A DNA stretch of 64,000 nt, taken from the NCBI GenBank assembly GCA_002788855.1, contig PFSB01000006.1:5467-69466 (forward strand). The letters run 5' to 3'. Below, in pieces: positions 4,318-46,902 of this stretch. Below the pieces are notes generated by a model. That model did no database searches and was not told the DNA's origin. It saw only the letters and a program-made list of their open reading frames with translations. The translations under genes were made by a program, and so were the position numbers. Position 1 is the first letter of the stretch. Every line of letters begins with the position of its first letter. Source of the stretch: Candidatus Roizmanbacteria bacterium CG_4_9_14_0_2_um_filter_38_17 (GTDB lineage: Bacteria > Patescibacteriota > Microgenomatia > GCA-00278855).

Positions 4318-5280
4318 ATGAATAAAGCAAGAAAAGTTTTAATTACAGGAATTACAGGTTTTGCAGGTAGCCATCTTGCAGAGCTGTTGCTGGATAAAGG
4401 TTATGACGTAGTAGGTACAATTCGACCTAGAAGTAAAACCGAGCATATAGATCATATTAAGAATAAGCTTAAACTGTATGATGCGGATCTTTCTGATTCT
4501 CATAGTTTGCAGACAGTTTTTATGACGGTAAAGCCAGAGTATATCTTCCACTTAGCTGCACAGGCATTTGTGCCTACTTCCTGGAGTAGTCCAGCAACTA
4601 CGATGGAAATTAATGCGTCTGGTTCAATTCATTTGTTTGAAGCAATTAGACGCGCTAATATTGATCCCGTTGTGCAGATTGCGTGTTCTTCAGAGGAGTA
4701 TGGTTTGGTAAAACCCGATGAAGTGCCGATAACAGAAGAAAATCCACTTAGACCGCTTTCACCATATGCAGTTTCTAAGATAGCCATGGACTATCTTGGT
4801 TATCAGTATTTCAAAAGTTATGGCGTGAGAATTATTAGAACTCGTGGATTTAATCATACTGGCCCAAGACGCGGAGATGTCTATGTGTGTTCAACGTTTG
4901 CTAAGCAAATAGCTTTAATTGAAGCAGATAAACAGGGTCCAATAATGAAAGTTGGCAATATTGAATCATATCGTGATTTTACAGATGTGCGTGATATGGT
5001 AAAGGCGTATTTGTTAGCAGTAGAAAAGGGAGAGCCTGGAGAAGTGTACAACATTGCAACGGGTAAAACGTGGCAGATTAAGAAGGTGCTAGATATGTTA
5101 CTTGGTATGAGTAAAAAAGATATTAAGATTGAGGAAGATCCCGAGCGAATGAGACCATCGGATGTTGAAATCCTACAGGGCGATGCGACTAAATTTAAAA
5201 AGGCTACTGGCTGGGAGCCAAAGTATAAGTTTGAGCAAACACTAGAAGACCTACTTAATTACTGGCGGGAACGAGTGTGA
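4318..5280 (+). CDS. NAD-dependent NDP-sugar epimerase/dehydratase, GDP-4-keto-6-deoxy-D-mannose reductase (Rmd)-like
   Basis: ITGITGFAGSHLAE Rossmann motif, YAVSK catalytic motif and C-terminal pattern FNHTGP...RDFTDVRD...GEVYN...TGWEP resembling Rmd/GMD-family SDRs. No gmd is present in the window. Confidence 0.6.
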   Translation: MNKARKVLITGITGFAGSHLAELLLDKGYDVVGTIRPRSKTEHIDHIKNKLKLYDADLSDSHSLQTVFMTVKPEYIFHLAAQAFVPTSWSSPATTMEINASGSIHLFEAIRRANIDPVVQIACSSEEYGLVKPDEVPITEENPLRPLSPYAVSKIAMDYLGYQYFKSYGVRIIRTRGFNHTGPRRGDVYVCSTFAKQIALIEADKQGPIMKVGNIESYRDFTDVRDMVKAYLLAVEKGEPGEVYNIATGKTWQIKKVLDMLLGMSKKDIKIEEDPERMRPSDVEILQGDATKFKKATGWEPKYKFEQTLEDLLNYWRERV

Positions 5281-6380
5281 AAAAAAAACCGCGTGTAGTA
5301 TTTATCTTACCTACATATAACGAGGTTGATAATATTAGCTTAGTAATTGAGCAGCTCCAGAATGTCTTTACTTCTATTTCTAGTTATACTTTTTCAATTC
5401 TTGTAGTTGATGATAAATCACCTGATAATACAGCAGGAATTGTCAATAAGTTAGGAAAAAAGTACTCAAATATAGAGCTTATTACAGGGGAAAAACAAGG
5501 CCTGGGAATTGCATATATACGTGGTATGAAATATGCAGAATCCAAGCTTCACGCTGATATATTTTTTAGTATGGATTCAGATTTATCTCACGATCCTTCT
5601 TTAATACCTCAGTTTTTACGCAAGATTGAGCAAGGCTCAGATATTGTTGTTGGAGCTAGATATATACCAGGTGGGTCAATTCCAGCTGATTGGGCATGGC
5701 AGCGTAAGCTATTTTCGATATTTGGGAATTTAATAATTCGTTTTGGCCTCATGATTCCTTCCATTCATGATTGGAGTAGTGGATATAGGGCGATTAAGGT
5801 TGAAGTATTTAAGAACATAGTGGATGGTTTAGATAAGTATAAAGGCTACACATTTCAGATGGCATATTTACATAGAGCTCTTAATGCAAAGTACAAAGTT
5901 GGGGAAGTACCGTTAAATTTTGTAGATAGAAAGCACGGTGAGTCAAAATTCATTCCTCTTGAATATATCTCGAACGTGCTGTTGTATATCCTCTTAAATT
6001 CAAGTTTTGTAAAATTTGGAGTTGTTGGAGTTGTTGGTTTTACAGTTAACCTGATAGGGCTTGAAGTATTTTATCGATTGGGATTTCATCCTGGAATTGC
6101 AGCTGCATTTGGGGCAGAGTTTGCGATTGTTTCAAATTTTATGTTTAATAATTTTTGGAGTTTTTCACATAAGAGTATTAAGAGGGGCGACGGATTACGA
6201 ATGAAGTTTTTAAGGTTTAATGGAGTTGCTGTGGGGGCTATTGTGATTCAAGCTCTTATCGTTGGCATAGGCACCAACATGTTTGGAGTAGATACGAGGT
6301 TCCTATTTTTACTATTGTCTTTAATACTTATAGTTCCATATAGTTATGTTATGTATAACCGTATTATATGGAAAAGCTAA
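5277..6380 (+). CDS. polyprenol-phosphate sugar synthase: GT2 (Dpm1-like) domain fused to C-terminal GtrA-like membrane domain
   Basis: GTG start in a GTGA overlap. N-terminal LPTYNE...VVDDKSPDNT...DSDLSHDP GT-A/DPM1 pattern; C-terminal 4-TM segment with a GtrA-family signature (GVVGFTVNL...SNFMFNNFWSF). An A9 tract lies at codons 2-4. Confidence 0.82.
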   Translation: MKKKPRVVFILPTYNEVDNISLVIEQLQNVFTSISSYTFSILVVDDKSPDNTAGIVNKLGKKYSNIELITGEKQGLGIAYIRGMKYAESKLHADIFFSMDSDLSHDPSLIPQFLRKIEQGSDIVVGARYIPGGSIPADWAWQRKLFSIFGNLIIRFGLMIPSIHDWSSGYRAIKVEVFKNIVDGLDKYKGYTFQMAYLHRALNAKYKVGEVPLNFVDRKHGESKFIPLEYISNVLLYILLNSSFVKFGVVGVVGFTVNLIGLEVFYRLGFHPGIAAAFGAEFAIVSNFMFNNFWSFSHKSIKRGDGLRMKFLRFNGVAVGAIVIQALIVGIGTNMFGVDTRFLFLLLSLILIVPYSYVMYNRIIWKS

Positions 6381-14473: not shown

Positions 14474-15203
14474 ACCTACTGTTGAAATAGTGTTACCTGT
14501 ATATAACGAAGAGGATGAGCTAGAAGCTCATACGCTTAAGCTTCGTAAGTTTGTAGATACTCAAACAAATTACAGCTGGGATATTACCATAGCTGACAAT
14601 GCCTCAAACGATAGCACGGCTTCTATTGGTGAGAAGTTAGCAAAAAAAAATGGTATTAATTACGTACGCATAGCCAAAAAAGGGAGAGGAAGAGCTGTTA
14701 AACAGCTCTGGCTTGAAAGCAAGGCAGATATAGTAATGTATATGGATATTGATTTATCTACAGATCTTAAGCATTTAACACCCCTAGTTAAGGCATTGAC
14801 GTCGGGTGCGGATATTGCGATTGGATCCCGTTTGCTGCCAGGTTCGGAAGTAGAAAAGCGCGAACTGAGACGAGAATTTATTTCTCGAGCATACAACCTA
14901 ATGATCAAGATCCTATTTATGACGCGTTTTTCGGATGCGCAGTGTGGATTTAAAGGTATGACAAAAAAGGCTACTATGGAGCTGATTCCTCATATAGAAG
15001 ATAATGACTGGTTTATGGATACAGAGCTTCTAGTCATTGCAGAAAAGAGTGGTTATAAGATATATGAAGAAGCTGTGCGTTGGGTAGATACTCCGGGTTC
15101 CACAGTTCGGGTACTGCCAACGGCAATGGGTGATATTAAGGGATTGGTTAGGTTATGGAAGACAAGACCTTGGAAGGTAATTAAAAAAATCAAATATTGT
15201 TAG
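14460..15203 (+). CDS. GT2 polyprenol-phosphate glycosyltransferase (Dpm1-like)
   Basis: LPVYNEEDEL...IADNASNDST...YMDIDLSTD...AQCGFKG motifs. Contains an in-frame A9 tract at 14642-14650. Confidence 0.8.
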   Translation: MQNHKPTVEIVLPVYNEEDELEAHTLKLRKFVDTQTNYSWDITIADNASNDSTASIGEKLAKKNGINYVRIAKKGRGRAVKQLWLESKADIVMYMDIDLSTDLKHLTPLVKALTSGADIAIGSRLLPGSEVEKRELRREFISRAYNLMIKILFMTRFSDAQCGFKGMTKKATMELIPHIEDNDWFMDTELLVIAEKSGYKIYEEAVRWVDTPGSTVRVLPTAMGDIKGLVRLWKTRPWKVIKKIKYC

Positions 15204-33252: not shown

Positions 33253-34958
33253 GAAGCAAACTTATCATTGGAGTATTTGCTATTGTGTTTTCACTGACAA
33301 TGCTTCGAAGTGGCTGGTACTTAGAAAATGGTTATAGATTAATAGGAGTGAATGCGAGTGATGGTATCTGGAATTTAGCTCTTATTTCAGAACTTATGAA
33401 TAGTTTTCCACCTGAGCACCCGGGTTTTGCTGGAGAACTGCTTAAGGGTTATCATTTCTTTTACCATATACTCTTGGCTGGAATAGCTAAGGTGACAAGT
33501 ATTCCAACAACTAGTCTCTATTTTCACATATTTCCACTTATTATTTCGTATCTCTGGGGGTATGGTGTTTATAGGGTTGTAGTTAAGCTATATAAGAATA
33601 AAAAAGCTGGATTATGGTCAGCTTTCTTTTCTTTATTTGGCGGGAGTTTTGCATTCTTATTACCATTGGTCTGGAAGCAGGATTTGAGCATAAATAGTGG
33701 TTTTGGAATATGTCAGCCTCTGGGATGTTCACTAGTAAACCCCGCCTTTGCAAGTTCTATAGTTTTGGTTATCTGGTCATATTATTTCTTGATTGAGTAC
33801 CTACGGACTAATAAAAAGAAATGGGCGATTTGGCTAATAGTAGCTACTGGTATAAGCGTTGGCTTTAAGGTTTATGCAGGCATGATATTAATGGGAGCCT
33901 TGGCTGTTGCAGCTGTCTGGAGGGCTTGGTCACAGCGCAAGTTTGATTTGCTGATAATATTTGGTTTAGCATTGCTTATGGCTATGGCGGTATTCTTCCC
34001 TTTTAATGCTAATTATGGATTTCTTCTTTTTCAACCTTTGTGGCCACCACATATCACAATGCAGGGACCGCTAGGATTTACTAGGTGGAGAGTTTTGTGG
34101 GAGTTAGCCGAATATACGCATAACTGGTGGGGGATTATTAAATTGGAGATCTGGGCGAACGGGGTATTTTTCTTGGGAAACATGGGCACTAGGCTGCTGG
34201 CAATATTTGCACTAGGAACATTTATTAAGAGAGGTATTTTAAAAGTAGATGCGATTTTTTATCTGGCAATGTTGGGTGTTTCGTATTTAATTCCAATGTT
34301 TTTTCTCCAACCAGCAGGTGGAGTATTTAATATGGTACAGATGTATTGGTATTTCTTGTTCTTAGTATCTATTTTAGTCGGTCCAGGAATAGTTAGTCTA
34401 ATGAGTAAGGTTAATAACAGATTTTATAGAATATTAATTTATTTACTAATTGTTATTATCACTTTACCTTCCAGCGTAACTGATTTGCAGATTTTACTTA
34501 CTGACAAGGGTAGAGTTATAGATAATAGCCAATTGGAAGTTCTGGAGTTTTTTCGTGAGCATGGAGAATATAACCAGACCGTGCTTCAGTTGCCAGAGCT
34601 GCGGCAGAAATATACAAAAGAAGAATTATATGGATGGTTCACATCAAGATCTAGTGCTATTATTCCTTCTCTTGGGGGAAAGAGAGTATATGCAGTAAAT
34701 GAGGGTGTAACATTTCCAGATCTTGATATAAATAAGAGGTTGGCACTAATTATGCGGTTTTTGTTACCAGAAAAAGTATGTAATAAGACAAATTGGGATA
34801 AATTAGTATGTCAGGATGCTTTAAACGATGCTTATAATATGCTACAATCGGAGGATATACACTTTATTTATTCAAAAGAGGATAGGTTTTGGCTAGACTA
34901 TTGGGATAAAATAAACGTTGTCTATAAAGGTGAGGGGGGGAGTATATATGGTATCTAA
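33249..34958 (+). CDS. polytopic membrane protein, putative GT-C (paralog of 55468 gene)
   Basis: 569 aa, >12 TM. Loop motif FPPEHPGFAGE...YHFFYH parallels FPPELPFFASK...YHYLFD in 55468..57081. Confidence 0.4.
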   Translation: MRSKLIIGVFAIVFSLTMLRSGWYLENGYRLIGVNASDGIWNLALISELMNSFPPEHPGFAGELLKGYHFFYHILLAGIAKVTSIPTTSLYFHIFPLIISYLWGYGVYRVVVKLYKNKKAGLWSAFFSLFGGSFAFLLPLVWKQDLSINSGFGICQPLGCSLVNPAFASSIVLVIWSYYFLIEYLRTNKKKWAIWLIVATGISVGFKVYAGMILMGALAVAAVWRAWSQRKFDLLIIFGLALLMAMAVFFPFNANYGFLLFQPLWPPHITMQGPLGFTRWRVLWELAEYTHNWWGIIKLEIWANGVFFLGNMGTRLLAIFALGTFIKRGILKVDAIFYLAMLGVSYLIPMFFLQPAGGVFNMVQMYWYFLFLVSILVGPGIVSLMSKVNNRFYRILIYLLIVIITLPSSVTDLQILLTDKGRVIDNSQLEVLEFFREHGEYNQTVLQLPELRQKYTKEELYGWFTSRSSAIIPSLGGKRVYAVNEGVTFPDLDINKRLALIMRFLLPEKVCNKTNWDKLVCQDALNDAYNMLQSEDIHFIYSKEDRFWLDYWDKINVVYKGEGGSIYGI

Positions 34959-35610
34959 TCACGAAATTACACTAGATGATTTACAGGACATTTGGCAGCA
35001 ACCAGGGCCTGATTATTATCAGCGAGGAGTTAAGGAGAATATATTACAAAAGATTTGGCATTACGGTAAGCTGAGAGCTATTTTATCTTTGATAAATAAA
35101 TCCGATGTTAATCCTAGTGCTATATTAGACGTGGGTTGTGCTAGTGGTTGGTTTTTATCACAAATGGCTGTAAAGTATCCAAAGGCTAGTTGCACTGGAA
35201 TTGATGTATATAAAGATGGAGTTGAATATGGTAAGAAAAAATATAAAAAACTAAACCTAACTGTGAGTGATGCGCATAAGATGCCCTTTGAGAAGGATTC
35301 GTTCGATACTGTTGTTTGCGCAGAGGTGCTTGAGCACGTGGTTAACCCACGAGAGGTGCTAAAAGAAATAAGAAGAGTATTAAAAAAAGAAGGTGTAGCT
35401 GTTATTGAAATGGACACTGGTAACTTACTCTTTAAGCTAGTTTGGCACTGGTGGACTAATCTAAGACATGGAGTATGGGAGAATGCCCATATTCAAGAAT
35501 TTAATACAGAGATATTAAAGAACATGATTGAAGGTGAAGGGTTCAATATTGTGGAGCAAAAGTTTTTTAACTATACTATGGCGGTAGCATTTTTAGTTCA
35601 AAAGACATAA
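34948..35610 (+). CDS. class I SAM-dependent methyltransferase
   Basis: LDVGCASGWF (motif I), DTVVCAEVLEHV (motif II-like) and LKKEGVAVI. Strong RBS GAGGGGGGG 8 nt upstream of ATG 34948. Confidence 0.8.
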   Translation: MVSNHEITLDDLQDIWQQPGPDYYQRGVKENILQKIWHYGKLRAILSLINKSDVNPSAILDVGCASGWFLSQMAVKYPKASCTGIDVYKDGVEYGKKKYKKLNLTVSDAHKMPFEKDSFDTVVCAEVLEHVVNPREVLKEIRRVLKKEGVAVIEMDTGNLLFKLVWHWWTNLRHGVWENAHIQEFNTEILKNMIEGEGFNIVEQKFFNYTMAVAFLVQKT

Positions 35611-40243: not shown

Positions 40244-41441
40244 TGATATGGGTGCGATAATATTATTTGCATTGGTTACCCCAGTTTTGATGACATATGG
40301 CTTGAGTACGGGAAATACTCCTTATTGGTTGTTTGGGCTTATTTTTCTTCTTTTGGGAATAAACCTGTTTTTACGTAAAGATAAACATAGAATAATACTT
40401 ACCTGGAGTGTGATTTTAATAACAGTCGGGTCAGTCTTTTTTTCATCTGTAATAGTTCGGTCTCAGGTTGCTCCAGTGCATGGTGTGCACGATATAATTT
40501 TGCAGCTTGAGGCGGCTACAAGGTATCTTACTAAAGGAGTAAATCCTTATGTAGCAGATTATTTTGGTACAGCACTTGAAGAGTGGTACTACTCGGATAC
40601 AGCTATCAATCCAGCGTTATACCATTTCGTGATGCCACCTTTTTATCTACTGTCGTTTATCCCTTTCTACTTCTTTGGTGCTCACTTTTTTAGTATTGTT
40701 GATGGTAGATTGCCGCTATTTTTTGCGTTTGTTGGAATTTTGTGGATATTGAATAAGATTGTTCCTAAAGAAGATAGAGCTCTTGCTTTGGGATTATTTG
40801 CATTTAATCCTGCAACCTTAAGCTTTTTTCTGGAAGGTAGGAGTGATATTCAGATGTTTTGGTGGTTGCTCCTCTCTTTGTATGTTCTGGGTCGTAAGCA
40901 ATTTGTTTGGTCCGGGATATTAATGGGGTTGGCTTTTGCTACTAAGCAGTCTGCTTGGCCTATATTTCCTCTTTATGTTGCATATCTGTATTTCTCTACA
41001 ACAAAATCTTCACTGATTAAGGGAGTTTTTTCGTTTACCGTTGCCTTTGGTTTAGTAACATTACCGTTTTTACTGTGGGATGCGCGAGCATTTTTTGATT
41101 CAACAATACTTTATTTAAATGGATCGCTGCCAACTAGTTATCCTATATCTGGTTACGGAATAGGAATGATGCTTAATCAGTTTGGATTAATAAAAGATCT
41201 ACAGGGGTACTTTCCATTCTGGATATACCAGTTGATATTTGGGCTACCCGTGTTAGTTTACTTGATCAATTATTTACGGAAAAAACCTACGGTGCGCAAT
41301 TTATTATTCTCCTATGGCATATTTCTCTTTGTTTTTTGGTATATGTCTCGATACTTTAATAATAGTCATGTAGGATTTTTAACATCTGTCTTTGTGGTGT
41401 CATATTTCTGGCCACAGGGTGGGGGGTCAAAAAAACAATGA
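40170..41441 (+). CDS. polytopic membrane protein, unknown (possible GT-C)
   Basis: ~11 TM, no soluble domain; true start probably near 40248 (MGAIILFALV...). Confidence 0.4.
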   Translation: MTGDLLILVVIMMHHRIGIKINPTDDMGAIILFALVTPVLMTYGLSTGNTPYWLFGLIFLLLGINLFLRKDKHRIILTWSVILITVGSVFFSSVIVRSQVAPVHGVHDIILQLEAATRYLTKGVNPYVADYFGTALEEWYYSDTAINPALYHFVMPPFYLLSFIPFYFFGAHFFSIVDGRLPLFFAFVGILWILNKIVPKEDRALALGLFAFNPATLSFFLEGRSDIQMFWWLLLSLYVLGRKQFVWSGILMGLAFATKQSAWPIFPLYVAYLYFSTTKSSLIKGVFSFTVAFGLVTLPFLLWDARAFFDSTILYLNGSLPTSYPISGYGIGMMLNQFGLIKDLQGYFPFWIYQLIFGLPVLVYLINYLRKKPTVRNLLFSYGIFLFVFWYMSRYFNNSHVGFLTSVFVVSYFWPQGGGSKKQ

Positions 41442-43147
41442 AGAACTGGATATTATTAGGATTAATAATCGTTCTGGCTTTGACTTTGCGTGTGGTGAAT
41501 TTGGGAGAAATACCTTCGTTTCATTCTGACGAAGTTGATTTTACCTACAATGCTTATTCTCTTCTGCTAACCGGTAGAGATCAATCGGGTAAACTACTAC
41601 CTCTAGCTACAACTTCAGTGGGTGATTTTAGGCCAGCGGCATACACCTATTTTGCAATATTACCTGTTAAATTGTTGGGTGCGACCGAGTTTGCTGGTAG
41701 GTTGCCATCAGCAATCTTAGGATCTCTATCTGTACTAGTTCTGTATTTATTGTCAAAAAGATTACTCAAGAGTCGAAGAGTTGGTTTTATTTCGTGTGTG
41801 CTATTGGGGTTTTCGTTTTGGCATATTAATCTTTCGAGGGAGGCAAGTGAAAAAGTTATGGCTATGTTTTTTGTTTTAGCTGGCTTGTTGTTTATGTATC
41901 GCTATGTAATCAAGACGAAATTAACAAATTTATTTCTTGCTTTTATTTTCTTGATGCTATCAATTCACTCGTACTATTCACCTCGTCCTTTTCTTCTTTT
42001 ATTATTACCGGTTGTGTATTTACTTTATCAGAAAGTTTTAAAGGGAAAGCAAAAAATAGTATTAGCAACAGCAATGGGGCTATTTATGTTAGCTATTTTA
42101 TATTTTACGTTTTTCTTTGGGCAGAGTAGCGAGAGAATAGGCCAGCTAAATATATTTAACCATCCATACACAGTTGCTTTATTGGGAGAGCAGATCCGTG
42201 AAGAAGGTAATACAGCTAATGTCTATGCAACTCGTTTTTATCATAATAAACTTGTAAACTTTGGATTCACTATTGGCCAGAACTATCTGGATTATTTTTC
42301 ACCTAGATATTTGTTTCTTCAAGGAGGTTTTCCAAATAGAGTTAAAATTCCAGCAGTAGGATTGCTTAATTTAGCTGAGTTGCCACTTCTTGTATACGGA
42401 ATATTTGCTCTAGCTCAGAGGTATTTTAAGTATAAAAATAAGGAAATATTGTTGGTATTTTTCTGGCTTGTGTTGGCTCCACTTTCGCCAGCTTTGACTT
42501 TTGATGAAATACCAAATGTGTACCGGACGCTGTTAATGTTGCCTCCTTTATTAATAATAATTGCTGCTGGGGTTAGTGAGTTAATACAGATGTTGGTTTC
42601 AGTTAGATGTGGGAAAGTCATTATTACTGTGGTAGCAATATTCTATTGCTGGAATTTATTATTCTTTATTCATCAATACCATACACATTTTGAGATACAT
42701 CAGTCACAGTATCGTAATTATGCACAAAAGGAGTTGGGGTTATTCTTAAAAGAAATAGAAGGTGAATATGAAACCATATACATTAGTAAGGGATACAGTG
42801 GTGCAGATCAAGTAATTCGTTATTATTTTGGATATAGTCCAGAACAGTATCAAGCAGAAGGCTCACCAAGGGATGAAGACTATGAGGGCTTTGGAAAAAT
42901 TGTCTATGTGCCTATGCCGTGTGCTTATCCAGAGCTTATTGGAAAAAAGATACCTCAGATAGGAAAAAACTATTTATATGTTAATCGGGCTGATTGTCAA
43001 CGTGAGTACGAGCAGTATCGAATATCAACAATTACATGGAGAGACAACTCACCTGCATATAGGGTAATTTCACCAGGCGTGCTATCTGAACATCCTGCTC
43101 TTGATGAGACCCAGTTGATGGAGGACGTAAAGAAGGAAGCAGAATAA
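41438..43147 (+). CDS. PMT_2/ArnT-like GT-C glycosyltransferase (paralog 2 of 4)
   Basis: LRVVNLGEIPSFHSDEVDFTYNAYSLLLTGRDQSGKLLPL...GDFRPAAYTYFAILPVKLLG. Confidence 0.6.
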   Translation: MKNWILLGLIIVLALTLRVVNLGEIPSFHSDEVDFTYNAYSLLLTGRDQSGKLLPLATTSVGDFRPAAYTYFAILPVKLLGATEFAGRLPSAILGSLSVLVLYLLSKRLLKSRRVGFISCVLLGFSFWHINLSREASEKVMAMFFVLAGLLFMYRYVIKTKLTNLFLAFIFLMLSIHSYYSPRPFLLLLLPVVYLLYQKVLKGKQKIVLATAMGLFMLAILYFTFFFGQSSERIGQLNIFNHPYTVALLGEQIREEGNTANVYATRFYHNKLVNFGFTIGQNYLDYFSPRYLFLQGGFPNRVKIPAVGLLNLAELPLLVYGIFALAQRYFKYKNKEILLVFFWLVLAPLSPALTFDEIPNVYRTLLMLPPLLIIIAAGVSELIQMLVSVRCGKVIITVVAIFYCWNLLFFIHQYHTHFEIHQSQYRNYAQKELGLFLKEIEGEYETIYISKGYSGADQVIRYYFGYSPEQYQAEGSPRDEDYEGFGKIVYVPMPCAYPELIGKKIPQIGKNYLYVNRADCQREYEQYRISTITWRDNSPAYRVISPGVLSEHPALDETQLMEDVKKEAE

Positions 43148-43825
43148 TGTATCTAGTACGTATTTGATTCCTTTCCAGCCACCGATGGATGAAGCCTCCT
43201 TAAAATAACGAACAGGAACAGGAGTTTCTCCTACTTTGAATCCATATGAAACCGCAGAAAAGATAAATTGTTGGTCAAATACGAAATTGTTTGAAAATCG
43301 CTGAAAAGGTATTACCTCTAAGGCTTTAGAAGAATAAGCTCGAAAACCGCTTAAGTGCTCTGAAAGATTCGTACCAAGGATTATATTAGCGATAGTTGTT
43401 AATATGCGATTTCCAAGGTATTTGATTGGTGGCATGCCTCCGGCGAGCGTCTCTTGACGTGTTCTGATTCTCGATCCTAGCATAACGTCGTATTCACCTT
43501 TAAGAATAGGTTCTACAAGTGCTGGTATTTTAGTTCCATCGTATTGGTAATCTGGGTGGAGCATGATTATTATGTCTGCATTGCTTTTTTGAGCTTCCCA
43601 ATAGCAAGTTTTTTGATTTCCTCCGTAGCCTACATTCTGCTTATGTACAAATGTTTTAATTCCTAGTTTTTTAGCTTCAATTGCTGTTCTATCTCCCGAG
43701 GCATCATCGACTAATATTATTTCGGAAATAAGATTTTTTGGTAAATCTTTAAATGTTTTTTCTAGAGTTTTCTCCGCGTAATATGCTGGCATTACAACAA
43801 CGATTTTGGGATTTGAGTCAGGCAT
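43082..43825 (-). CDS. GT2 polyprenol-phosphate glycosyltransferase (Dpm1-like), minus strand
   Basis: IVVVMPAYYAEKTL...ILVDDASGDRT...HPDYQYD motifs. Its 3' end overlaps the 3' end of the convergent 41438 gene by 66 nt. Confidence 0.78.
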   Translation of the reverse strand: MPDSNPKIVVVMPAYYAEKTLEKTFKDLPKNLISEIILVDDASGDRTAIEAKKLGIKTFVHKQNVGYGGNQKTCYWEAQKSNADIIIMLHPDYQYDGTKIPALVEPILKGEYDVMLGSRIRTRQETLAGGMPPIKYLGNRILTTIANIILGTNLSEHLSGFRAYSSKALEVIPFQRFSNNFVFDQQFIFSAVSYGFKVGETPVPVRYFKEASSIGGWKGIKYVLDTLFCFLLYVLHQLGLIKSRMFR

Positions 43826-43927
43826 AGTAATATCTATTATATCCTATTTCCTATCTTACTTGATTATGAGTGACTTAATACGTATCATGTCTTAATAATA
43901 TGAGATTATTATACCTCTTCATCTAAG

Positions 43928-45309
43928 ATGAAATACTATATTAATTATATAATTAAAAATCTGCACTATATATTCTTGCTTGGCTATACAGCTGCGGGGG
44001 TACTGGTTTCTCTGTTTAGATATTGGCAGTTTGAGACATTTTATTATGATTTTGGAATATATGATCAAGCCATCTGGAGAGTGTCTCGATTTCAGCCGCC
44101 TATAATCGACCATTTCGTTCGTACAGGTCAATGGATTTTTGCTGACCATTTTACTCCCAGTCTCTTTTTGCTTTCATCCTTGTATTGGATTACATCAAGA
44201 GCAGAAATTCAACTCATTGCTCAAGTTGTTGCTGTTAGTTTAAGTGGGTGGGTTTTATATAAGATTGGTATTAGTGTTTTGAAAGACCGGTTTATATCTT
44301 TTGCAATAATGGTTTCTTATCTACTATTTGTTGGTCTACAGAATGCGCTTATAACAGATATTCATCCGGATGTGTTTGCGACTTTACCATTTATGCTAAC
44401 GGTGTACTTGTTTGTACGTAATAAAAAGCGTTCTTACTACCTATGGTTACTAATATTTTTAGGTTTTAAGGAGAACTTTTTTTTTGGTAAGTGCTGGGCT
44501 GGCGATATTTATCTGGTTTGTGAATAAAAAATGGAGAAAAATAAGCTTAATAACCTTAGTAATACCATTATTATGGGGGTGGTTGAGTATTAAAATTATT
44601 ATTCCATATTTTGCAGGAGATTTGTACCAGTATGCTCCCACGGATTTGGGATCGATGCTGAGAGATTTAACTTTTCTAATTGATCATCCAATTAAACGCA
44701 AAACTTTATTTGATAGTTTTTTGAGTTTTGGATTCCTTCCTCTATTGTTTCCACCTGCGTATCCGCTTATATTACAAGACTTGAGTGTGAGATTTTTTCC
44801 ACAGTTTTCATATTTAAGGTGGGGGATGAGTATACATTATAGTGTACAACTTGCCGGGATAATGGGTGTGTCTAGTATCTATGCATGCTTAAGATTTGGT
44901 AAAAAAAGCTCGACTATATTACGGAATTGTGTTGGTTATTGTTGCATTATTTATGCACCAGTTTTATTTACATGGACCACTAGCACTTGCATATAATCGT
45001 GCATTTTATCTTCATACAAAAAACCTTCATTTTCTAGAGGAATTGGTAAATAAAGTGCCTAAAGATGCCTCTGTGATGACGCAGAACAATCTGGCTGTGC
45101 GTTTTACTCATCAGGATGTAATGCTCTTAAGAGATAACTATGAGGTTTATAATCCTGATTATATTGTTCTTGATCTAAGGGATGAGCAAAATCCTAATGT
45201 GTTTTTTGGGCTTAAAGATAAAGATAGCTTGCTAACTTTCTTGCTAAGAGATAAAAACTATGAGGCTATATTTCAGACTGAATATCAGTATGTCTTTCAA
45301 AAAAAGTAA
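43928..45309 (+). pseudogene. polytopic membrane protein gene split into three reading frames at T9 (44477-44485) and A7 (44901-44907) homopolymers
   Basis: Three consecutive same-strand ORFs (43928-44527, 44484-44996, 44896-45309) in frames 2, 0 and 1 abut exactly at homopolymer tracts. Concatenated they give a ~460 aa multi-TM protein with a C-terminal soluble domain. Confidence 0.55.
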
Positions 45310-45323
45310 GCCTTCTTAAGGCT
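45309..45323. terminator. weak bidirectional hairpin between convergent genes
   Basis: AGCCTTcttAAGGCT (6-bp stem) spans the stop codons of the convergent genes. It is preceded by A7 on plus (T7 for the minus transcript) and followed by GTTTATAT. Confidence 0.3.
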
Positions 45324-46902
45324 GTTTATATAGTAGTTCTTTAGCTTGCCCCCATTGTTTATCTGTTATCTCAGGTAGTTTCTGCTTATTTATATACAAG
45401 CAGGTGGGTTTGTCATCGGTTGAAATAAGCTGTTGGTATTCTTTGAGTATGTCTTTAGATAAAGATCCAAGAGCTATGCGTTCATCAGGACAAGATCCAT
45501 AGTAGAAATCTGGTGGATTATCTTTAAACATTTTCATGCGGGTGTTAGAGTACTTGGCAAAGTTAGGCATAGCTGAGGTATACCAAGAGTATTTATATGC
45601 CGATAGTCTTTGTGCCTGCCAGTAGATAAGATCGTCAAATCCGTCTAAGAAGAGAGTATCATCTGGATCTGAAAGAACCTTAACTACTTCTCCAACCTGC
45701 ATTTCGTTTCCAAAGTTGTTAACCAACATTTCATGTTGATTTAATTGCTCATGGATATAGGAACGTGGAGAGATAAGAATATAGCCAATAAGACTAATTA
45801 GTACTATTGCAAAAAGAGCAGTAATTTTATAGTTTTTATGTTGAAATTGATCTTGCAACATAAGGAAGATTGAGAATAGAAACACCCCAAGCCAAGGAGC
45901 CATGTGAAAAGCGCCGTAAAAAACATCTCCAGGCTCAACAAGTCGTAAATTTGCTAGTCCTAGAATCGCTAGTAGAGCTATAACGGATTTATACTGTTTT
46001 TGCTTAACTGTAATTATAAGCAAGACTACAAATACCCCGCTTAGTACTATTAGGGTATGTCTGAAAATGTTCCACTCACCGCTTAAAAAGATATATAGGG
46101 GATAAATAAATGACTTTATCATGTCTCTACCAAATTCAAAAAATCCTGTGTTGATGGTATATATGTTAAAGATATATTCTTGAACTGGATGAATTAGGAT
46201 AGTAGCAAGACTTAATAGTAAAAAAGTTATTAGTGAAATTTGTTTTACTTTAGAAAAAGGCTTACCAAGAACAATTAGACCAAAGCTTGCTAGAGTTGAT
46301 AGTAGAAAAGGAATACGCGTAAAGATAATAAACCAGCTACAAATAGCACTAACTACGTAATCTACTTTGTATATCTTCTTATTTTGATATTTATATATTA
46401 CAATCCCCACAAGATAAGCCAAGGGATAGACAATTAACCCCTCTCCTAAAAATCTCTCTCCAAACAAGTAGAATTTAAGTAGCTCATATAGAAACACAAA
46501 TCCTATGCCAAAAAAACCAAAACGAAGTAGTAGTAATAAGTTTGCGGTGAAACTAAAAAGAAGTACAAATTGACGATGGCGAAGTAGTAGTTCGAAAATA
46601 TTAGTAGGCTGAGTAAATAGCTGAATAAGATAACTAATGTAAGCCATTAGTGGCTGGTGATTAAAAAAGATTTGGGAGTACAATTGCTTGCCGTTTAAGA
46701 TGAAGTATCCGCCTAAGTAGTTAAAGCAGTCGTCAAAACAGCCAAATGCAGCAATTCTAGGGATATATAGTTTGTAAAGAAAAATGTACCAGGTAACCAA
46801 TATTAGCGTCACAATAACTAAATAAGGGAGTTTTTTTGTGTACATGATATGATTATAAGGTATATTCAAGGTTATGAGAAAGCTATTTGTACTTATATTC
46901 AT
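45316..46902 (-). CDS. polytopic membrane protein, unknown (possible GT-C), minus strand
   Basis: ~13 TM; start probably MYTKK near 46854, leaving ~20 nt to the divergent 46874 gene. Confidence 0.4.
   Translation of the reverse strand: MNISTNSFLITLNIPYNHIMYTKKLPYLVIVTLILVTWYIFLYKLYIPRIAAFGCFDDCFNYLGGYFILNGKQLYSQIFFNHQPLMAYISYLIQLFTQPTNIFELLLRHRQFVLLFSFTANLLLLLRFGFFGIGFVFLYELLKFYLFGERFLGEGLIVYPLAYLVGIVIYKYQNKKIYKVDYVVSAICSWFIIFTRIPFLLSTLASFGLIVLGKPFSKVKQISLITFLLLSLATILIHPVQEYIFNIYTINTGFFEFGRDMIKSFIYPLYIFLSGEWNIFRHTLIVLSGVFVVLLIITVKQKQYKSVIALLAILGLANLRLVEPGDVFYGAFHMAPWLGVFLFSIFLMLQDQFQHKNYKITALFAIVLISLIGYILISPRSYIHEQLNQHEMLVNNFGNEMQVGEVVKVLSDPDDTLFLDGFDDLIYWQAQRLSAYKYSWYTSAMPNFAKYSNTRMKMFKDNPPDFYYGSCPDERIALGSLSKDILKEYQQLISTDDKPTCLYINKQKLPEITDKQWGQAKELLYKQP

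What the first reader, a model, noticed from the sequence alone, without database searches (positions are those of the whole stretch)
43928..45309. Membrane-protein gene broken into three frames exactly at T9 and A7 homopolymers
ORFs 43928-44527, 44484-44996 and 44896-45309 are consecutive, same strand and in frames 2, 0, 1. Each junction coincides with a homopolymer (T9 at 44477-44485, A7 at 44901-44907). Other long tracts (A9 at 5280-5288, A9 at 14642-14650) leave their genes intact, so a generic homopolymer sequencing artefact is less likely than real frameshifts: either a decaying paralog or a homopolymer-based phase-variable gene currently OFF.
Basis: seen in the sequence. Interest (0 to 1): 0.65.

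Follow-up and report, generated by a model that had tools for sequence, protein, structure and literature searches.

The report
Recently broken membrane glycosyltransferase gene
One membrane sugar-transferase gene in an uncultured groundwater bacterium has been knocked out by single extra bases in a run of T and a run of A; the breaks are real, but this looks like an ordinary young dead gene, not an on/off switch.

Summary
ORFs 43928-44527, 44484-44996 and 44896-45309 are three pieces of one gene. Removing one T from T9 (44477-44485) and one A from A7 (44901-44907) restores a 459-aa ORF. It matches Pfam DUF2079 in one stretch (E 6e-37), and its predicted fold resembles GT-C membrane glycosyltransferases.

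A 98%-identical allele from other metagenomes carries T8 and A6 and is intact. The only two indels between the alleles lie in these tracts.

The breaks are not sequencing errors. T9/A7 recurs, base for base, in 13 contigs fetched from about 13 data sets and several assembly pipelines; ORF1 is indexed in 49 collection blocks.

State follows lineage. All 15 contigs of the window's allele are out of frame and all 9 of the other allele are in frame. No in-frame product of the window's allele exists among about 15 billion proteins. The window's allele also has replacements at conserved positions (P84S, S213P, L161).

Best reading: a young pseudogene, fixed in its population, made by slipped-strand +1 insertions, within a large array of GT-C and GT2 genes. 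Two single-contig variants (T9/A6; T8 plus an extra G) suggest tract instability, but neither is in frame. Phase variation and rescue by slippage are not excluded without reads or RNA.

The parts
43928..45309 (+). Whole frameshifted DUF2079 (GT-C-like membrane glycosyltransferase) gene. It would be 459 aa after removing one T and one A.
   Evidence: Pfam PF09852, 128 bits, one stretch; the 119 listed homologs apart from its own intact allele are single proteins of 440-497 aa covering 94-100% of the query; AF2 pLDDT 84; top 21 PDB matches all GT-C enzymes.
43928..44527 (+). Fragment 1: native residues 1-185, then 14 out-of-frame residues (FGKCWAGDIYLVCE) and a stop.
   Evidence: It holds the family-invariant D41 and the A72-D73-H74 motif. 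It is recorded as a 199-aa protein (P0121) under NCBI accessions whose source names include 'hypothetical protein' and 'DUF2079 domain-containing protein'.
44477..44485 (+). T9 tract = first lesion. It is T8 (codons TTT TTT TTG, FFL) in the intact allele.
44484..44996 (+). Fragment 2: native residues 186-326, then an out-of-frame tail. It has a TTG start 10 nt after AAGGAG (44468-44473), which is simply the conserved K181-E182 codons.
44901..44907 (+). A7 tract = second lesion. It is A6 (AAA AAA, KK) in the intact allele and in one contig of the window's own allele (L011).
44896..45309 (+). Fragment 3: native residues 327-459, starting at 44908. No Shine-Dalgarno-like sequence precedes either candidate start (TTG 44896, ATG 44953).
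44177..44179 (+). Codon 84, TCC (Ser). It is Pro in 48 of 48 homologs and in the intact allele.
44408..44410 (+). Codon 161, TTG (Leu). Homologs have Ala 39, Ser 7, Met 2 and never Leu; the intact allele has Ser.
44565..44567 (+). Codon 213, CCA (Pro). It is Ser in 46 of 48 homologs and in the intact allele.
44679..44747 (+). Patch holding 11 of the 24 differing codons, 10 of them synonymous. Probably a small imported recombination tract.

Best explanation
This is a young pseudogene that is fixed in its population. The ancestral gene encoded a 459-aa polytopic membrane protein of family DUF2079 with a GT-C-type glycosyltransferase fold. It sat in a large cell-surface glycosylation gene array of a Candidatus Roizmanbacteria / Microgenomates bacterium. 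The ancestor carried two mutation-prone runs: T8 (codons FFL) and A6 (codons KK). Slipped-strand mispairing during replication added one base to each, giving T9 and A7. Each insertion shifts the frame by +1 and brings up a stop within 14-30 codons. Shown here: the lesions, their exact position relative to an intact allele, their recurrence across independent assemblies, and the complete association of state with lineage. Inferred: the slippage mechanism, loss of function, and the order of events. T9 probably came first and A7 later, because one contig has T9 with A6. The loss may be neutral, given many related GT-C genes nearby, or it may be selected as a change of surface glycan. The data do not separate these two.
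For: (1) Removing one T and one A restores a single DUF2079 ORF.
(2) An intact allele with T8/A6 differs by only 26 substitutions, and its only two gaps lie in these tracts.
(3) T9/A7 is identical in 13 fetched contigs from about 13 data sets (JGI, NCBI, ENA, Logan) with several contig-naming styles. The ORF1 protein is indexed in 49 blocks of the collection.
(4) State follows lineage: 15 of 15 contigs of the window's allele are out of frame, and 9 of 9 distinct contigs of the sister allele are in frame.
(5) Exact look-ups found none of the alternative tract-length products tested (T8/A6, T8/A7, T8/A8, T8/A5, T7, T10, T11/A6, T11/A7, an A8 form of ORF2) among about 15 billion proteins.
(6) There are two separate inactivating lesions.
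(7) The window's allele has derived replacements at conserved positions: P84S (48/48 Pro), S213P (46/48 Ser) and L161 (0/48 Leu).
(8) The frameshift is not conserved in homologs. Apart from P0001, the gene's own intact allele, the 119 listed homologs are single proteins of 440-497 aa.
(9) No other gene in the window is split at a homopolymer. The seven other merge candidates lie at gene junctions: for five the downstream ORF carries its own domain hit beginning at or near the start of the profile, and for the other two (27633, 55476) Pfam was uninformative.
Against: Only consensus assemblies were available, not reads, so minority in-frame cells within a sample cannot be excluded. Two single-contig variants of the window's allele show the region is not completely static: L011 (T9/A6) and L012 (T8 plus an extra G 17 nt downstream, with A7). 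The gene is unusually well preserved for a pseudogene: dS to the intact allele is 0.026-0.064, against 0.39 and 0.62 for the flanking genes. That means the lesions are very young, and there has been little time for decay to show. dN/dS is 0.12 overall and 0.27 outside the recombined patch, against 0.03 and 0.17 in the flanks. This rests on 7 non-synonymous and 6 synonymous codons, so it is not decisive.
Confidence: 0.72

Rival explanations
1. Phase-variable (contingency) gene caught in the OFF state. Under this reading, the lengths of the T and A tracts switch reversibly at high frequency, turning a surface-glycan transferase on and off in subpopulations.
For: The lesions are in simple repeats. 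The gene is a glycosyltransferase in a surface-glycosylation cluster, which is the classic target class; phase-variable glycosyltransferase genes are described in Pasteurella (PMC9176279) and homopolymeric-tract phase variation in Campylobacter (PMC8355987), both listed. Tract length does differ in two contigs of the same allele: A6 in L011 and T8 in L012.
Against: No ON form of this allele and no OFF form of the sister allele was found. Two lesions must both revert to give ON. The single T8 variant carries a new +1 nearby and remains OFF. A/T runs of 8 or more are not enriched in the window: 8 observed against 14.3 +/- 3.8 expected. The T8 tract is not conserved in homologs, where ENFFL is replaced by ESTFLL and similar. 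There are replacements at conserved residues.
Confidence: 0.13
2. The gene is still functional despite the frameshifts. Either RNA polymerase slippage or ribosomal frameshifting on U9 and A7 restores the frame, or the three pieces are made separately and assemble in the membrane.
For: Runs of A or T are known slippage sites, with error rates rising exponentially with run length (PMC5574713). Almost every native residue is still encoded in one of the three frames. Fragment 2 happens to have AAGGAG 10 nt before its TTG start. The nucleotide sequence is very well preserved.
Against: A +1 DNA insertion needs a 1-nt deletion or a 2-nt insertion in the RNA. In E. coli and Buchnera, slippage in homopolymers is mostly single-base insertion, deletions in runs are rare, and no case of a restored reading frame was seen (PMC5574713). 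Two independent rescues would be needed per molecule, one of them at a run of only 7. No rare or stop codon follows either run to drive a +1 ribosomal shift (sequence). The frameshift is absent from every homolog, unlike programmed frameshifts. Fragment 3 has no ribosome-binding site.
Confidence: 0.07
3. Homopolymer sequencing or assembly artefact; the real genome has T8 and A6.
For: Both lesions are in homopolymers, the usual site of indel errors. L012 shows an odd compensating pair of indels that could be a local consensus error.
Against: The same T9/A7 occurs in about 13 data sets with different contig-naming styles (NODE_, k141_, Logan, JGI, GenBank). Contigs with the same naming styles (k141_, Logan, JGI) resolve T8/A6 in the sister allele.
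Confidence: 0.02
4. Three independent, separately conserved small genes.
For: Gene callers annotate them separately.
Against: The pieces are consecutive segments of one Pfam domain. Every homolog is one protein. In the precomputed Pfam table, fragments 2 and 3 have no family of their own.
Confidence: 0.01

Closest known systems
Slipped-strand frameshift pseudogenes at poly(A)/poly(T) tracts in AT-rich, small-genome bacteria (e.g. Buchnera, Blochmannia; PMC5574713, PMC3017870 listed)
   Same: The genome is AT-rich (37% G+C). There is a single-base insertion in a run of A or T inside a coding region. The flanking sequence is intact. The gene is otherwise well preserved.
   Different: Here the lesions are demonstrably young: an intact allele with dS 0.03-0.06 exists. 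They are population-specific. Two lie in one gene. The organism is a free-living or episymbiotic groundwater Patescibacterium rather than an insect endosymbiont.
Homopolymer-driven phase-variable glycosyltransferase genes (Campylobacter, Neisseria, Haemophilus, Pasteurella; PMC8355987, PMC5084427, PMC9176279 listed)
   Same: A surface-glycan transferase is interrupted at a homopolymer inside the ORF. Some tract-length variation is seen between contigs.
   Different: Those loci usually have one long tract, and ON and OFF states are mixed within a lineage. Poly-G/C is the tract type stated for Campylobacter and for the Neisseria haemoglobin receptors in the abstracts. Here the tracts are A/T runs of ordinary length for the genome, there are two lesions, and no ON state was observed in the lineage.
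GT-C fold lipid-linked-sugar glycosyltransferases (ALG12, ALG9, STT3/PglB, DPY19, ArnT, EmbC, Pmt4)
   Same: The repaired protein's AF2 model hits only these enzymes in its top 21 PDB matches, with probability 0.99-1.00 and TM about 0.4-0.5 for the top 18. It has many TM helices. Acidic residues D41 and D73 are invariant, in non-helical segments that follow the first N-terminal helices.
   Different: There is no detectable sequence similarity to any solved structure. Identity in the structural alignments is 8-16%. DUF2079 has no experimentally described member that I could find: no paper in the library contains the name.

Membership tests
Pfam DUF2079 (PF09852) | Score above the curated gathering threshold over most of the profile. 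| tested here: met
   The repaired protein scores 128.3 bits against a cut-off of 28.2, with one stretch covering profile positions 1-427 of 459.
GT-C fold glycosyltransferase | Polytopic membrane fold similar to solved GT-C enzymes. | tested here: met
   AF2 model: pLDDT 84, pTM 0.84. The top 21 Foldseek PDB hits are all GT-C enzymes, E down to 5e-6, TM 0.32-0.51. The similarity is moderate.
GT-C fold glycosyltransferase | Conserved acidic residue(s) in the first extracytoplasmic loop. | tested here: inconclusive
   D41 and D73 are invariant in 50 sequences, and both lie in non-helical segments after the N-terminal helices: helices at 2-29, 44-53 and 77-87. Membrane topology and a catalytic role were not tested.
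GT-C fold glycosyltransferase | Uses a polyprenyl-phosphate-linked sugar donor. | not testable with these tools
   The only evidence is context: a GT2 gene (43082-43825) lies next to it and PMT_2 genes surround it.
Pseudogene (recent) | Reading frame disrupted relative to intact close orthologs. | tested here: met
Pseudogene (recent) | Lesion is the consensus across the population, not a one-off. | tested here: met
   13 fetched contigs carry T9/A7. All 15 of 15 contigs of this allele are out of frame. ORF1 is indexed in 49 blocks.
Pseudogene (recent) | Relaxed selection. | tested here: inconclusive
   Three derived replacements lie at conserved sites. dN/dS is 0.27 outside the patch against 0.03 and 0.17 in the flanks, but only 13 codons differ there.
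Pseudogene (recent) | No functional product. | not testable with these tools
   This needs RNA or protein data.
Phase-variable contingency locus | Simple repeat inside the ORF whose length sets the frame. | tested here: met
   T8/T9 and A6/A7.
Phase-variable contingency locus | Both ON and OFF states occur within one lineage. | tested here: not met
   At the level of assemblies there is no ON form of the window's allele and no OFF form of the sister allele. Read-level heterogeneity was not testable.
Phase-variable contingency locus | Tract longer or more frequent than composition predicts, and conserved among relatives. | tested here: not met
   A/T runs of 8 or more: 8 observed against 14.3 +/- 3.8 expected. 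The FFL and KK codons are not conserved in homologs.
Programmed frameshift / programmed transcriptional slippage | The frameshift is conserved among homologs. | tested here: not met
   All listed homologs are single-frame proteins, and the closest allele is in frame.

The most novel reading that the evidence does not exclude
The T and A tracts act as a real ON/OFF switch of a surface-glycan GT-C transferase in a Candidate Phyla Radiation bacterium. In that case the population is held OFF at this site, and the two rare variants (T9/A6, and T8 plus a new +1) are traces of ongoing switching under selection for loss. I found no paper linking homopolymer contingency loci to this group in one literature search.
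Probability: 0.1. Interest if true: 0.6.

Novelty: new member of a known kind. Interest (0 to 1): 0.25.

Why it matters
The main value is for annotation. In the NCBI records two of the pieces appear as separate proteins (199 and 170 aa), under source names that include 'hypothetical protein' and 'DUF2079 domain-containing protein'. They should be read as one frameshifted gene. It is also a clean, datable example of gene loss in an uncultured small-genome bacterium. An intact allele differing at only about 2% of bases exists, and the lesions sit at the two most slippage-prone runs of the gene. The gene belongs to a very large array of surface-glycosylation genes that seems to exchange gene-sized segments between strains. 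If the loss were shown to be selected or reversible, it would bear on how these bacteria vary their surface. As it stands, this is an ordinary pseudogene.

Tried and rejected
- NCBIfam scan of the repaired protein: no family.
- PDB sequence search with a 50-sequence profile: nothing at E <= 1.
- Literature search for 'DUF2079': no paper.
- Search for phase variation together with Candidate Phyla Radiation: none of the listed papers contains the latter term.
- Both scans of GTDB representative genomes found nothing, so the organism's name rests on the source names.
- The JGI metagenome scan with an exact 35-mer returned only one contig, carrying the intact allele, so it was useless as a population survey. 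The survey was done through exact-protein look-ups instead.
- A screen for other homopolymer frameshifts in the window gave seven further 'merges'. All lie at gene junctions. For five the downstream ORF carries its own domain hit beginning at or near the start of the profile; for the other two (27633, 55476) Pfam gave no family for the relevant ORF or it was not scanned, so those two rest on ORF size and position alone.
- tBLASTn for a second DUF2079 copy in the window found none, so 'paralog' is not supported.
- A search for papers on Roizmanbacteria and Crystal Geyser did not identify the source of the sample. My belief that the broken allele comes from Crystal Geyser and the intact one from the Rifle aquifer rests only on my memory of accession and naming styles and is untested.

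Full report
**What is there**

The window has three consecutive + strand ORFs: 43928-44527 (199 aa), 44484-44996 (170 aa) and 44896-45309 (137 aa). They are in frames 2, 0 and 1. A run of nine T occupies 44477-44485 and a run of seven A occupies 44901-44907. The stretches in which each frame change must lie are 44463-44527 and 44893-44996, and each contains its run.

Deleting one T and one A gives one 459-aa ORF. It matches Pfam DUF2079 (PF09852) in a single stretch, residues 31-420 on profile positions 1-427 of 459, at 128 bits and E 5.9e-37. tBLASTn of the repaired protein back onto the window shows the three pieces end to end, with no second copy.

**What the gene is**

The 120 best database matches are P0001, the gene's own intact allele (459 aa, 98% identical), and 119 homologs at 47-56% identity. 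Several are named by their sources as DUF2079 proteins of Gottesmanbacteria, Levybacteria or the Patescibacteria group.

The fragments themselves are in public records. The names listed for the 199-aa piece (NCN58329.1, PIP61742.1, PJC32050.1, UniRef100_A0A2H0BVN0) include 'hypothetical protein COW99_02585 [Candidatus Roizmanbacteria bacterium ...]' and 'DUF2079 domain-containing protein [Candidatus Microgenomates bacterium]'. The 170-aa piece (NCN58328.1) is listed as a hypothetical protein of Candidatus Microgenomates bacterium.

No paper in the library mentions DUF2079, and no solved structure is detectable by sequence. An AlphaFold2 model of the repaired protein, built on a 50-sequence alignment, has mean pLDDT 84 and pTM 0.84. 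Its 21 best Foldseek matches in the PDB are all GT-C-fold glycosyltransferases that use lipid-linked sugars: ALG12, STT3/OST, DPY19, ALG9, PglB, ArnT, ALG3, EmbC and Pmt4. E-values reach 5e-6, and TM-scores are about 0.4-0.5 for the top 18 hits and 0.32-0.39 for the remaining three.

D41 and the A72-D73-H74 motif are invariant. They lie in non-helical segments that follow the N-terminal helices, which is the region where GT-C enzymes carry their catalytic acidic residues. That last point is established knowledge of the fold; topology was not tested here.

The neighbourhood fits this reading. A GT2 gene lies immediately upstream on the other strand. PMT/PMT_2 and PTPS_related membrane proteins lie on both sides. 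More GT2 genes and a methyltransferase occur further along. Almost all are on one strand across the 64 kb.

**The lesions are real and are +1 insertions**

Four contigs from other data sets (L007-L010) carry an identical intact 1380-nt gene. Against the window it shows 26 mismatches and two gaps over 1382 aligned positions (97.97% identity). The two gaps are one T fewer (T8) and one A fewer (A6). Five further loci with intact variants also have T8/A6.

The broken version, by contrast, is identical base for base in L001-L006 and L014-L017. It is identical at both tracts in L018-L020. These come from:
- JGI samples 3300025150, 3300007987 and 3300025034
- GenBank assemblies GCA_002786635.1 and GCA_009992065.1
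- ENA assemblies ERZ17912254 (NODE_ naming) and ERZ27293400/359/413/355 (k141_ naming)
- Logan assemblies of SRR6051699, SRR6050960 and SRR6471176

The ORF1 protein is indexed in 49 blocks of the collection. Contigs with the same naming styles (k141_, Logan, JGI) resolve T8/A6 in the sister allele. A homopolymer sequencing or assembly error is therefore excluded for practical purposes.

**Switch or dead gene?**

I could not look at reads, so I surveyed assemblies and exact proteins.

- *State follows lineage.* Among fetched loci, 13 of the window's allele are T9/A7, one is T9/A6 (L011) and one is T8 with an extra G 17 nt downstream plus A7 (L012). All 15 are out of frame. All 10 loci of the sister allele are T8/A6 and in frame; these are 9 distinct contigs, because L013 and L021 are the same record.
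- *No other states in the cluster.* The 90%-identity cluster around the intact protein has 13 distinct sequences: eight intact forms and five fragment sequences, of which only P0132 (the A6 form) and P0129 (the T8+G form) come from variant contigs.
- *No ON form anywhere.* Exact look-ups tested the products expected from the window's allele with T8/A6 (the ON form), T8/A7, T8/A8, T8/A5, T7, T10, T11/A6 and T11/A7, and an A8 form of ORF2. None is present among about 15 billion proteins.
- *Two lesions.* Both must revert to give ON.
- *Damage at conserved residues.* Against 48 homologs, the window's allele has derived residues at conserved positions: Ser84 (Pro in 48/48), Pro213 (Ser in 46/48) and Leu161 (Ala, Ser or Met; never Leu). 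The sister allele has one comparable departure, Leu264 (Phe in 47/48). One short contig of the broken allele even has H146R at an invariant His. That could also be an error in a 1-kb contig.
- *Tracts are unremarkable.* A/T runs of 8 or more number 8, against 14.3 +/- 3.8 expected from a first-order Markov model. The FFL and KK codons that create them are not conserved in homologs.

Together these points favour one historical inactivation that is fixed in this population, not frequent switching.

**Residual instability**

L011 differs from the window only by A6 across 2.9 kb. L012 differs only by T8 plus the inserted G across 6.6 kb. If both are real, deriving the three haplotypes from a T8/A6 ancestor needs at least four events or recombination, so at least one tract has changed more than once. 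That is what slippage-prone runs in a gene no longer under selection would show. It is also the only hint in favour of switching. L012 could be a local consensus error. This needs reads.

**Rescue by slippage**

A +1 DNA insertion must be undone by a 1-nt deletion or a 2-nt insertion in the RNA, or by a +1 ribosomal shift, and this must happen at both sites in the same molecule. In E. coli and Buchnera, transcription errors in A/T runs are mostly single-base insertions. Deletions in runs are rare, and no restored reading frame was observed (PMC5574713). No stop or obviously slow codon follows either run. No homolog shares the frameshift. Fragment 2 has a fortuitous AAGGAG 10 nt before its TTG start, but fragment 3 has nothing comparable. 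I rate functional rescue or a functional three-piece protein as unlikely.

**Age and context**

Synonymous divergence between the window's gene and the intact allele is 0.064, or 0.026 without codons 249-275. The GT2 gene just upstream has dS 0.39 and the convergent downstream gene has dS 0.62 on the same contigs. The drop in divergence coincides with the gene borders.

The identical intact gene also sits in a different upstream context in L007, with no GT2 gene and only 33 nt shared. P0128 has a different N-terminal 30 residues on an otherwise near-identical protein. The gene has therefore recently been exchanged between fairly divergent strains, and the lesions arose after that exchange.

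dN/dS is 0.12 overall and 0.27 outside the patch, against 0.03 and 0.17 for the flanks. With 13 differing codons this is not decisive.

The broken and intact alleles come from non-overlapping sets of samples. My guess at which sites these are rests only on memory of naming styles.

**Other checks**

A screen for homopolymers whose +/-1 correction would fuse long ORFs found seven more cases. All lie at gene junctions. For five of them (9840, 20444, 34934, 41421/41429, 53139) the downstream ORF carries its own domain hit beginning at or near the start of the profile. For 27633 and 55476 the relevant ORFs gave no Pfam family or were not scanned, so I treat them as junctions on size and position alone. 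The DUF2079 gene is therefore the only gene with a demonstrated homopolymer frameshift in this window.

**Verdict**

It was created by single-base slippage insertions in T8 and A6. It is a new instance of a well-known kind of event. Phase variation (about 0.13) and rescue (about 0.07) remain possible until read pile-ups and expression data are examined.

Noticed in passing
window 43850-45350 compared with L008, L009, L013: The DUF2079 gene is about 99% identical to the sister strain (dS 0.026-0.064). The GT2 gene just upstream has dS 0.39 and the convergent downstream gene has dS 0.62. The change in divergence falls at the gene borders, which suggests a recent gene-sized recombination or transfer between divergent strains.
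   Followed up: partly
L007:1-2212: L007 carries the identical intact DUF2079 gene, but only 33 nt upstream are shared with the other intact-allele contigs. A 572-aa + strand gene lies directly upstream and the GT2 gene is absent. This is a structural variant of the cluster.
   Followed up: partly
window 44679-44747: 11 of the 24 codons that differ from the intact allele are packed into codons 251-273, and 10 of them are synonymous. This looks like a small patch imported from a third lineage.
   Followed up: no
L012:3001-3600 (JGI 3300025005, 164-kb contig): This contig is identical to the window over 6.6 kb, except for T8 instead of T9 and an extra G 17 nt downstream (GCTGGGCTGGCG becomes GCTGGGCTGGGCG). 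The gene remains frameshifted with the same 199-aa ORF length. It could be an independent null allele, a reversion followed by a new lesion, or a consensus error.
   Followed up: partly
L011:775-2155 (JGI 3300004214, 2.9-kb contig): This is the window's allele with T9 but A6, otherwise identical. It shows the second lesion is polymorphic, or arose later than the first.
   Followed up: partly
window 44364 (L020:291): A 1-kb MEGAHIT contig of the broken allele has A>G, changing the family-invariant His146 to Arg. It may be a minor variant or an error.
   Followed up: no
window 1-64000: The whole window is a dense, almost unidirectional array of glycosylation genes. It holds many 420-580-aa membrane proteins (PMT/PMT_2, PTPS_related, DUF2079, and several with no Pfam match), several GT2 genes and a SAM methyltransferase (34918-35610).
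   Followed up: partly
window 45310-45325: The DUF2079 gene and the convergent 528-aa gene end 6 nt apart. A short inverted repeat GCCTTCTTAAGGC lies over the junction and may be a shared terminator hairpin (read from the sequence).
   Followed up: no
window 41224-41265 (L003:324-338): The GenBank assembly GCA_002786635.1 has a 15-N scaffold gap where the window has 42 bases.
   Followed up: yes
window, all A/T runs: Runs of 6 or more A/T are more frequent than a first-order Markov model predicts (168 vs 119 +/- 10). Runs of 8 or more are fewer (8 vs 14.3 +/- 3.8). This is consistent with selection against the most slippage-prone tracts.
   Followed up: no
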